Shown here one piece after another: positions 60,081 through 60,459 of a stretch of 64,000 bases of DNA. Under the pieces are notes generated by a model. That model had not been told where the DNA came from. It did no database searches and was given only the letters and a program-made list of their open reading frames with translations. The DNA lies in the NCBI RefSeq assembly GCF_003334405.1, contig NZ_QOWM01000005.1; one strand, written 5' to 3'. The position numbers and the translations under genes were made by a program. The DNA comes from Escherichia coli (GTDB lineage Bacteria; Pseudomonadota; Gammaproteobacteria; Enterobacterales; Enterobacteriaceae). Position 1 is the first letter of the stretch. Every line of letters begins with the position of its first letter.

Positions 60081-60459
60081 GTTCTTCTAGCGCAATAACC
60101 CTGAACGCCGGGCTTCGGTTAGTAAGGGTTTTTTTATGCCCGCGATAAATAAACTCTCTATTCCACCATCATTATTCTCAGCGGTTGCAAGGCTTGAACG
60201 GTAAGAACAAGCAAACCCGACCACCATTTTGCTGTTCATAGCCACTTGCTGGAAGTTAGCCGACCTCACTCATACTCACCGTTCAAAGCGTGCCCCCGTT
60301 TTACCCCTGCACATTTGTGAACGCCAGCAGAGTTTTTTATGCGATTGCAGATATGGAAAGCGGCTCGGAGAGAAAAGCAAAAGATGGAAAAGTTACAAAA
60401 AAAAATCGCGAGATACATCGCATAAAACAACGCCACCCGAAGGTGGCGTGCTTTTATTA

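What the first reader, a model, noticed from the sequence alone, without database searches (positions are those of the whole stretch)
60081..60459. chpS-chpB toxin-antitoxin locus appears absent between ppa and ytfP
As I recall K-12 gene order, the chpS-chpB (ChpBK MazF-like) module lies between ytfP and ppa. Here ppa and ytfP are separated by only 379 bp with no matching ORF, only terminator-like hairpins (e.g. GCCACCCGAAGGTGGC around 60432..60447).
Basis: partly seen in the sequence, partly recalled or inferred. Interest (0 to 1): 0.35.

Follow-up and report, generated by a model that had tools for sequence, protein, structure and literature searches.

The report
Decayed chpSB toxin-antitoxin relic in E. 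coli
This E. coli carries the common, already-described version of the ppa–ytfP gap that lacks the chpS-chpB toxin-antitoxin genes, and the gap is not empty but holds a small, dead fragment of the toxin gene, so it is an ordinary gene-loss scar.

Summary

The gap is not an empty site, though. It is a fossil of chpSB:
- 60163-60287 is 72% identical to chpB nucleotides 19-145, with an in-frame stop, a frameshift and substitutions spread evenly over codon positions.
- The last 11 nt of chpB sit at 60158-60168.
- About 110 bp of the region upstream of chpS survives at 60297-60405.
- All of chpS, its ribosome-binding site and a palindrome upstream of chpS are deleted.

Among 5,426 complete E. coli genomes, 3,100 have chpSB and 2,325 have this relic; the two look mutually exclusive. 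BL21(DE3) carries a relic segment (window 60150-60300) identical to the window's. The same two deletion junctions occur in the E. albertii type strain, so the loss is old.

Related genera show a truly empty site (100-170 bp, terminators only), intact chpSB, or other cargo.

The presence/absence polymorphism at this locus was published in 2013 (chpBS, esiB or neither). Low interest; the relic is a minor addition.

The parts
59550..60080 (+). ppa (inorganic diphosphatase), the left border of the locus
   Evidence: 176-aa ORF. Annotated as ppa in RefSeq genomes that match the 1252-bp ppa-to-ytfP query at 100%.
60097..60137 (+). ppa terminator-like hairpin (AACCCT...AGGGTT followed by a T-run)
   Evidence: Centroid fold; the energy alone is not better than shuffles (z 0.48). 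This stretch is 93% identical to K-12. Its homologue is the part of the interval next to ppa that is retained in genera with short gaps (query 316-379).
60155..60168 (-). Relic of the chpB 3' end. CTATTCCACCA corresponds to K-12 TTATTCCACCA (the stop codon and last codons of chpB; the stop is now TAG). The 6-bp CCACCA lies at the internal-deletion junction.
60163..60287 (-). Relic of the chpB 5' part (K-12 chpB nt 19-145, codons 7-48). It is a pseudogene with an in-frame stop and a 1-nt frameshift.
   Evidence: blastn gives 72% identity over 127 nt, E 8e-19. It hits annotated chpB in 3,098 E. coli genomes at E 1e-7 against 28 Gb. tblastn shows VG*LPASGYEQQNGGR, then a frame change to LVLTVQAL. 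Differences from K-12 are 12/12/14 at codon positions 1/2/3.
60288..60296 (.). 9-nt filler (GCGTGCCCC) at the second deletion junction. It replaces 312 bp of K-12: chpB nt 1-18, all of chpS, the ribosome-binding site, the 19-bp palindrome and 49 nt upstream of the chpS ATG.
60297..60405 (-). Surviving distal part of the chpS upstream region
   Evidence: 86% identical to K-12 across 60297-60449. Species with intact chpSB in other genera share it at 66-68% (Lelliottia L032, Enterobacter asburiae L041, Pseudocitrobacter L068). Species with 100-170-bp empty gaps match only the interval ends (about the first 44 and the last 65 nt).
60407..60449 (-). Tandem ytfP terminator hairpins: 60430-60449, which is bidirectional, and 60407-60422 followed by a T-run
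   Evidence: for the pattern scan. for the fold (-24.5 kcal/mol, z -4.16). K-12 has the same pair. The first hairpin is conserved in Citrobacter, Salmonella, Klebsiella and others.
60460..60801 (-). ytfP (gamma-glutamylcyclotransferase family), the right border of the locus
   Evidence: 113-aa ORF. RefSeq annotation WP_001219160.1.

Best explanation
The 379-bp ppa-ytfP interval is the non-functional remains of a chpS-chpB (ChpBI/ChpBK, MazEF-family type II toxin-antitoxin) operon that once sat here.

Two deletions destroyed it. One is an internal chpB deletion of about 195-201 bp between two CCACCA motifs, which removed codons 49-113. The other is a 312-bp deletion that removed the chpB start, all of chpS, its ribosome-binding site and the palindrome upstream of chpS. 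What survives is a chpB 5' fragment that has since drifted neutrally, part of the chpS upstream region, and the ppa and ytfP terminators. I expect nothing toxic or antitoxic to be made from it. The interval now serves only as the convergent terminator region of ppa and ytfP.

This relic allele is one of two old, mutually exclusive alleles in Escherichia. Both cross species boundaries and are shuffled by homologous recombination in the flanks.

Shown here: the homology, the deletion junctions, the broken reading frame, the population frequencies, and the sharing with E. albertii. Inferred: the order of the two deletions, the age of the loss (roughly the depth of the genus), and the lack of transcription or function.
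For: - K-12-lineage gene order and the 886-bp gap.
- Pairwise blastn resolves the window interval into four pieces: ppa terminator plus chpB stop end (93%), chpB nt 19-145 (72%, E 8e-19), a 9-nt filler, and chpS-upstream plus ytfP terminators (86%) (coordinates).
- The relic finds annotated chpB in 3,098 genomes.
- It has an in-frame stop and a frameshift.
- Substitutions are even across codon positions (12/12/14). Functional orthologues compared with K-12 are dominated by third-position changes (6/5/22, 6/5/26).
- The relic is closest to Escherichia chpB (70-71%) and far from chpB of other genera (48-59%).
- The same two junctions occur in six relic alleles, including the E. albertii type strain.
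- 3,100 genomes have chpSB and 2,325 have the relic, out of 5,426. Exactly 3,098 genomes have full-length chpSB and 3,098 have chpB as their only match to the relic query.
- In other genera the empty gap is 100-170 bp and retains only the two ends of the interval.
- The K-12 palindrome AGTTATAC-AAA-GTATAACT is absent from the window.
- No sigma-70-like promoter was found in 59900-60700, and there was no Rfam family hit.
- The chpBS / esiB / neither polymorphism at this locus is published (PMC3735183). Decay of chromosomal toxin-antitoxin loci in E. coli is reviewed in PMC7167474.
Against: - Only 64 kb of this genome was available, so a chpSB copy elsewhere cannot be excluded directly. The evidence against one is the complementary genome counts.
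- Relic alleles from different Escherichia species are more alike (4-13% apart) than tamB four-fold sites of the same genome pairs (26-35% apart). Pure neutral vertical descent does not predict that. It requires inter-species recombination or some constraint.
- The age estimate rests on about 130 sites.
- The absence of a consensus promoter does not prove absence of transcription.
Confidence: 0.9

Rival explanations
1. This is an ancestral empty site. The window shows the original ppa-ytfP intergenic region, and K-12-type strains later gained chpSB by insertion.
For: chpSB has a patchy distribution across Enterobacteriaceae, and many species have short gaps with no chpSB. Chromosomal toxin-antitoxin loci are generally regarded as horizontally acquired (PMC7167474).
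Against: The window interval contains chpB-homologous sequence at the syntenic position and in the same orientation. It also contains the chpS upstream region, which is otherwise seen only in chpSB-bearing species. Truly empty gaps are 100-170 bp, not 379 bp.
Confidence: 0.03
2. The relic has been co-opted. It either encodes a small protein (the 50-aa ORF at 60087-60239, -, annotated as hypothetical protein WP_001297254.1 in some RefSeq records) or gives rise to a regulatory RNA, and that function keeps it conserved across Escherichia species.
For: One RefSeq record examined annotates the ORF. The ORF is open in the window, in 'E. coli' SCPM-O-B-8794 and in E. albertii. Relic alleles are more similar between species than tamB four-fold sites are.
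Against: In the Eco-15, ST80 and A37 relic alleles this reading frame holds no ORF of 25 aa or more; they differ from the window by small indels there. The E. albertii version differs at about 10 of 50 residues with no sign of constraint. The ORF runs antisense through the ppa terminator. No promoter-like site and no Rfam family hit were found. Within E. coli the relic diverges about as fast as four-fold sites: 5.6-7.1% against 7.8% in tamB for A37.
Confidence: 0.04
3. chpSB is not lost but has moved elsewhere in this genome, onto the chromosome or a plasmid, leaving a scar behind.
For: Three chpSB places in the E. coli collection lie on plasmids, and one genome has two places, so the module can occasionally sit elsewhere.
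Against: There is no ChpS or intact ChpB match anywhere in the 64-kb window. In 5,426 genomes, the number with full-length chpSB (3,098) equals the number whose only match to the relic query is intact chpB (3,098). Relic-bearing genomes therefore essentially never carry chpSB elsewhere.
Confidence: 0.03

Closest known systems
chpS-chpB (chpBI-chpBK) type II toxin-antitoxin operon of E. coli K-12 (MazEF/PemIK family; Masuda et al. 1993, cited in PMC7167474)
   Same: It occupies the same chromosomal slot between ytfP and ppa in the same orientation. Window 60163-60287 is homologous to chpB nt 19-145. The chpB stop-codon end and the distal chpS upstream region are retained.
   Different: There is no intact toxin ORF, no antitoxin gene, no ribosome-binding site and no upstream palindrome. 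About 507 bp of the K-12 module are deleted, and the surviving chpB fragment is 29% diverged with a stop and a frameshift.
The three-state ytfP-ppa locus described by Pastorello et al. 2013 (mBio, PMC3735183): chpBS, esiB, or neither
   Same: The window is their 'both absent' state. They reported 32% of 47 genomes. Here the relic allele is 42.8% of 5,426 genomes including esiB carriers, or about 39% without them. My counts for chpSB (57%) are close to theirs (53%).
   Different: In the passages I read, that paper does not mention that the 'absent' and esiB-bearing alleles both carry a chpB relic. In the two esiB genomes examined, esiB sits on the relic background. In A37 it is inserted at the ytfP terminator hairpin, which is duplicated. 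esiB is rarer in today's genome set (3.5%, against their 15%).
Decay of the chromosomal ccdO157 toxin-antitoxin system in E. coli (Mine et al. 2009, cited in PMC7167474)
   Same: It is a chromosomal type II toxin-antitoxin locus at a conserved position that is intact in some strains and degraded by deletions or nonsense mutations in others, and it is read as neutral loss of a non-essential selfish module.
   Different: It belongs to a different toxin family (CcdB gyrase poison versus MazF-type RNase) and sits at a different locus. Here a single old deletion architecture is shared across species, rather than many independent lesions.

Membership tests
Functional chpSB / MazEF-family type II toxin-antitoxin module | Intact toxin ORF (ChpB, 116 aa, PemK/MazF family) | tested here: not met
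   Only codons 7-48 and the last few codons remain, with an in-frame stop and a frameshift. The only ChpB hit in the window has E 0.002.
Functional chpSB / MazEF-family type II toxin-antitoxin module | Intact antitoxin ORF (ChpS, 83 aa) immediately upstream of and overlapping the toxin gene | tested here: not met
   No ChpS similarity anywhere in the window (best E 0.43, elsewhere and by chance). The K-12 segment L001 2444-2755, which contains chpS, is replaced by 9 nt.
Functional chpSB / MazEF-family type II toxin-antitoxin module | Promoter and palindromic operator upstream of the antitoxin gene, for autoregulation | tested here: not met
   The K-12 palindrome AGTTATAC-AAA-GTATAACT (L001 2720-2738) is absent from the window. 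No sigma-70-like site was found in 59900-60700. That this palindrome is the ChpS operator is my inference; I did not look it up.
Pseudogene relic of chpB | Significant nucleotide homology to the parent gene at the syntenic position and in the same orientation | tested here: met
   72% over 127 nt, E 8e-19. E 1e-7 against 28 Gb of E. coli genomes, landing on annotated chpB.
Pseudogene relic of chpB | Loss of coding constraint: a disrupted frame and substitutions spread evenly over codon positions | tested here: met
   A stop and a frameshift. Differences of 12/12/14 at positions 1/2/3, against 6/5/22 for a functional orthologue.
Pseudogene relic of chpB | The same lesion shared by descent in related genomes | tested here: met
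   Identical junctions in six alleles from E. coli, a cryptic Escherichia lineage and E. albertii. 2,325 E. coli genomes match the relic query at 80% identity or more.
Never-occupied (ancestral empty) intergenic site | Only the two convergent terminators lie between ytfP and ppa, as in genera without chpSB | tested here: not met
   Empty gaps in Citrobacter, Salmonella diarizonae, Enterobacter, Klebsiella and Kluyvera are 100-170 bp and match only the interval ends. The window has 379 bp including chpSB-derived sequence.
Intrinsic (Rho-independent) terminator | G+C-rich hairpin followed by a T-run downstream of a gene | tested here: met
   60430-60449 (8 bp, 6 G-C) and 60407-60422 plus T9 on the ytfP strand. 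The fold is -24.5 kcal/mol, z -4.2. Termination activity itself was not tested.

The most novel reading that the evidence does not exclude
The intact chpSB allele and its roughly 29%-diverged relic form an ancient polymorphism that crosses species in Escherichia. Under this reading it is kept at intermediate frequency (57% versus 43% in E. coli) by balancing selection, for example a benefit of ChpB under phage or stress set against its cost. The unexpectedly high similarity of relic alleles between species would then reflect selection-driven introgression, or a residual function of the relic, rather than drift.
Probability: 0.08. Interest if true: 0.4.

Novelty: already known. Interest (0 to 1): 0.12.

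Why it matters
It matters little beyond bookkeeping. That chpSB is present in some E. coli strains and absent in others at the ytfP-ppa locus is already published. Decay of chromosomal toxin-antitoxin modules is an established theme.

There are three small additions here:
- The 'empty' and esiB-bearing alleles are both scars of an old chpSB loss shared with E. albertii. chpSB was therefore resident early in Escherichia, not a recent K-12-side gain.
- Common laboratory B strains, BL21(DE3) and C41(DE3), carry a relic segment (window 60150-60300) identical to the window's. By the genome-count argument they lack ChpB. This is worth remembering when toxin-antitoxin or persistence phenotypes are compared between K-12 and B backgrounds.
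- The 50-aa 'hypothetical protein' (WP_001297254.1) annotated over this relic in at least one RefSeq record examined is probably spurious.

Tried and rejected
- MAFFT global alignment of the window interval against the K-12 interval misplaced the relic and suggested about 140 bp of unrelated sequence. Small-word blastn and a chpB multiple alignment showed it is chpB.
- Rfam at a permissive E-value over 59000-61500 gave only a chance-level S15-leader hit inside ppa (E 0.85, 16.8 bits against a gathering score of 39.5). Rejected.
- The promoter scan found nothing in the interval. A scan of K-12 did not identify the chpS promoter either, so the scan is uninformative about the native promoter.
- I looked for a chpB in another genus that the relic resembles more than it resembles Escherichia chpB, which would point to a foreign origin. 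None was found; identity is 48-59%.
- I tested the 50-aa ORF over the relic as a gene. That frame has no ORF of 25 aa or more in three of six relic alleles. Rejected.
- HH45 first looked like a natural recombinant between the relic and the intact allele. Its K-12-like patch sits next to a noisy 130-bp G/C-rich insert. That insert occurs only in HH45 and HH97, from one study, and the two copies are 87% identical. I treat it as a probable assembly artefact and not as evidence.
- Fiedoruk et al. 2015 and Ramisetty & Santhosh 2016, the two papers most likely to have described chpB decay, are not held in the library. I could not check whether the relic itself is already described.

Full report
**Observation.** The window is E. 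coli chromosome. A 1252-bp query from ppa to ytfP matches all 5,426 complete E. coli genomes in the collection, several at 100%. ppa is at 59550-60080 (+), ytfP at 60460-60801 (-), tamB starts at 60804 (-) and ytfQ is at 58284-59240 (-). The gap 60081-60459 is 379 bp. Together they fold at -24.5 kcal/mol, z = -4.2. In a K-12-lineage record (MC4100) the order is ppa, chpB, chpS, ytfP, tamB with an 886-bp gap, and PMC5120126 tabulates the same neighbours.

**What the interval really is.** A global alignment suggested that about 140 bp of the window interval was unrelated to K-12. Small-word blastn resolves the whole interval (coordinates):
- 60081-60168 is the ppa terminator region plus the last 11 nt of chpB including its stop codon (93% identical to K-12).
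- 60163-60287 is chpB nt 19-145 (72% identity, E 8e-19).
- 60288-60296 is 9 nt of filler.
- 60297-60449 is the region upstream of chpS plus the ytfP terminators (86%).

Relative to K-12, two segments are missing. One is about 195-201 bp inside chpB, bounded by CCACCA on both sides. The other is 312 bp that held the first 18 nt of chpB, all of chpS, its ribosome-binding site and a perfect palindrome (AGTTATAC-AAA-GTATAACT) 14 nt upstream of the chpS start. I infer that this palindrome is the operator.

The homology is not chance. Used as a query against 28 Gb of E. coli genomes, the 151-bp stretch lands on annotated chpB in 3,098 genomes at E 1e-7. At the protein level the only ChpB match in the 64-kb window is this fragment. 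It has an in-frame stop (VG*LPASGYEQQNGGR) and then a frame change (LVLTVQAL). ChpS has no match.

Differences from K-12 chpB are spread evenly over codon positions (12/12/14). Functional orthologues from Enterobacter asburiae and Lelliottia differ from K-12 mostly at third positions (6/5/22 and 6/5/26). The fragment is therefore a pseudogene that has drifted without coding constraint. It is closest to Escherichia chpB (70-71%) and far from chpB of other genera (48-59%), so it derives from the resident Escherichia gene.

**Population picture.** Of 5,426 complete E. coli genomes, 3,100 (57.1%) carry chpSB, 3,098 of them full-length. 2,325 (42.8%) carry the relic at 80% identity or more, and three have neither. 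The number of genomes whose only match to the relic query is intact chpB (3,098) equals the number with full-length chpSB. The two states therefore look mutually exclusive, and relic-bearing genomes essentially never keep chpSB elsewhere. BL21(DE3) and C41(DE3) carry a relic segment (window 60150-60300) identical to the window's.

esiB is present in 188 genomes (3.5%). In the two esiB genomes examined it sits on the relic background. In A37 it is inserted at the ytfP terminator hairpin, with that hairpin duplicated on either side.

All of this matches Pastorello et al. 2013 (PMC3735183). They reported chpBS in 53%, esiB in 15% and neither in 32% of 47 genomes, and they noted short direct repeats with inverted symmetry around esiB. 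Other papers treat chpSB as an accessory, lineage-associated locus. Decay of chromosomal toxin-antitoxin loci in E. coli is an established theme.

**Age and origin.** Six relic alleles have exactly the same two junctions: the window, Eco-15, ST80, A37, 'E. coli' SCPM-O-B-8794 (which represents a separate species cluster) and the E. albertii type strain. This points to one old event.

I anchored on YtfP to recover the locus from 80 Enterobacteriaceae species representatives. The results were:
- Most Citrobacter, Salmonella diarizonae, Enterobacter, Klebsiella and Kluyvera have a 100-170-bp gap that retains only the two ends of the interval, which is a truly empty site.
- Intact chpSB sits in exactly the same spot in E. 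whittamii, two unnamed Escherichia species, 'E. coli' strain E69 (apparently not E. coli sensu stricto, since its tamB four-fold sites differ 27.5% from the window's), Lelliottia, Enterobacter asburiae, Pseudocitrobacter, Kluyvera genomosp. 1 and an unnamed Enterobacteriaceae (64-97% amino-acid identity).
- Citrobacter sedlakii has an independent C-terminal chpB relic.

A three-point distance calculation I made by hand from the identities (relic, K-12, E. asburiae) puts about 23% raw divergence on the relic branch and about 7% on the constrained K-12 branch. For comparison, tamB four-fold sites differ by 35% between the window and E. albertii, and by 2.6% between the window and K-12. My inference, from only about 130 sites, is that the gene died at roughly the depth of the genus Escherichia.

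Divergence between the two allele classes peaks at the relic (29%) and falls in the flanks (14% and 7% in the interval, a few per cent in the genes). This is the pattern expected for an old insertion/deletion polymorphism whose flanks are homogenised by recombination.

**An unresolved point.** Relic alleles of different species are more alike (4.2% and 12.7% apart) than tamB four-fold sites of the same genome pairs (26% and 35%). The flanking segments also show a mosaic pattern of similarity. I read this as inter-species recombination at the locus. Constraint on the relic is the alternative, but the evidence for it is weak:
- The 50-aa ORF at 60087-60239 (-), annotated as a hypothetical protein in one RefSeq record examined, has no counterpart of 25 aa or more in three of six relic alleles.
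- There is no promoter-like site.
- There is no Rfam family hit.

**Mechanism.** Nothing functional is expected from the relic. The interval works only as the convergent terminator region for ppa and ytfP.

The two deletions could have come in either order. The usual model is that the toxin is inactivated first, which frees the antitoxin to be lost. That fits the internal chpB deletion, but it cannot be tested because all relic alleles carry both deletions. K-12 strains with chpB deleted are viable, so a one-step loss would also be tolerated.

**Verdict.** The absence is a common, published allele. The relic detail is a modest addition that I could not check against the two most relevant subscription papers. 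Interest is low.

Noticed in passing
L004 4532-6566 (E. coli A37); L086 (ST80): esiB, which encodes the secretory IgA-binding protein, sits on the relic background in both genomes. In A37 it is inserted at the ytfP terminator hairpin, and about 26 bp of that hairpin are duplicated on either side of the insert. esiB is in 188 of 5,426 complete E. coli genomes (3.5%), well below the 15% reported in 2013 from 47 genomes.
   Followed up: partly
L005 2476-2740 (E. coli HH45); HH97 (H110): These two genomes have the relic's junctions, but the central chpB stretch is K-12-like (93% over the whole 127-nt fragment, against 72% for the window). Next to it is a roughly 130-bp G/C-rich insert found only in these two assemblies, which come from one study, and the two copies are only 87% identical. 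Assembly noise is the likely cause. If real, it would be a gene-conversion tract between the intact and relic alleles.
   Followed up: partly
L088 538-690 (equivalent to window 60087-60239, - strand): One RefSeq record examined annotates a 50-aa hypothetical protein (WP_001297254.1) across the chpB relic and, in antisense, the ppa terminator. That frame has no ORF of 25 aa or more in the Eco-15, ST80 and A37 relic alleles, so the annotation is probably spurious.
   Followed up: yes
L012 6510-9675; L018 6734-8227; L034 6389-8201; L089 1073-10001: The ytfP-ppa gap is an insertion hotspot across Enterobacteriaceae. Citrobacter gillenii (L012) has a TonB-dependent receptor plus a YncE beta-propeller there, about 3.4 kb in all; a dozen other Citrobacter, Lelliottia and Enterobacter representatives have gaps of the same size, contents not checked. 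S. enterica arizonae has a 403-aa Hcp (TssD)-fused protein plus a small ORF. E. cloacae DSM 26481 has unknown membrane ORFs. E. coli N50 has a bgl-like operon and a P2-like prophage next to ppa. FDAARGOS_1250 has an IS1 in the interval (H1).
   Followed up: partly
L028 4638-4770 (Citrobacter sedlakii); L034 8100-8168 (Enterobacter cloacae): These are independent chpSB relics in other genera. C. sedlakii has a ChpB C-terminal fragment (residues 63-107) in a 347-bp gap. E. cloacae has a ChpS N-terminal fragment (residues 9-31) beside ppa. chpSB therefore seems to have been lost repeatedly from this slot.
   Followed up: no
L001 2720-2738 (K-12 lineage): A perfect 8+3+8 palindrome, AGTTATAC-AAA-GTATAACT, lies 14 nt upstream of the chpS start codon. 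It is a likely ChpS/ChpSB operator. It falls inside the segment deleted in the window allele.
   Followed up: no
window 60015-60071 (+): There is a weak Rfam match to the ribosomal S15 leader inside the ppa coding sequence (16.8 bits against a gathering score of 39.5, E 0.85). I consider it chance.
   Followed up: yes
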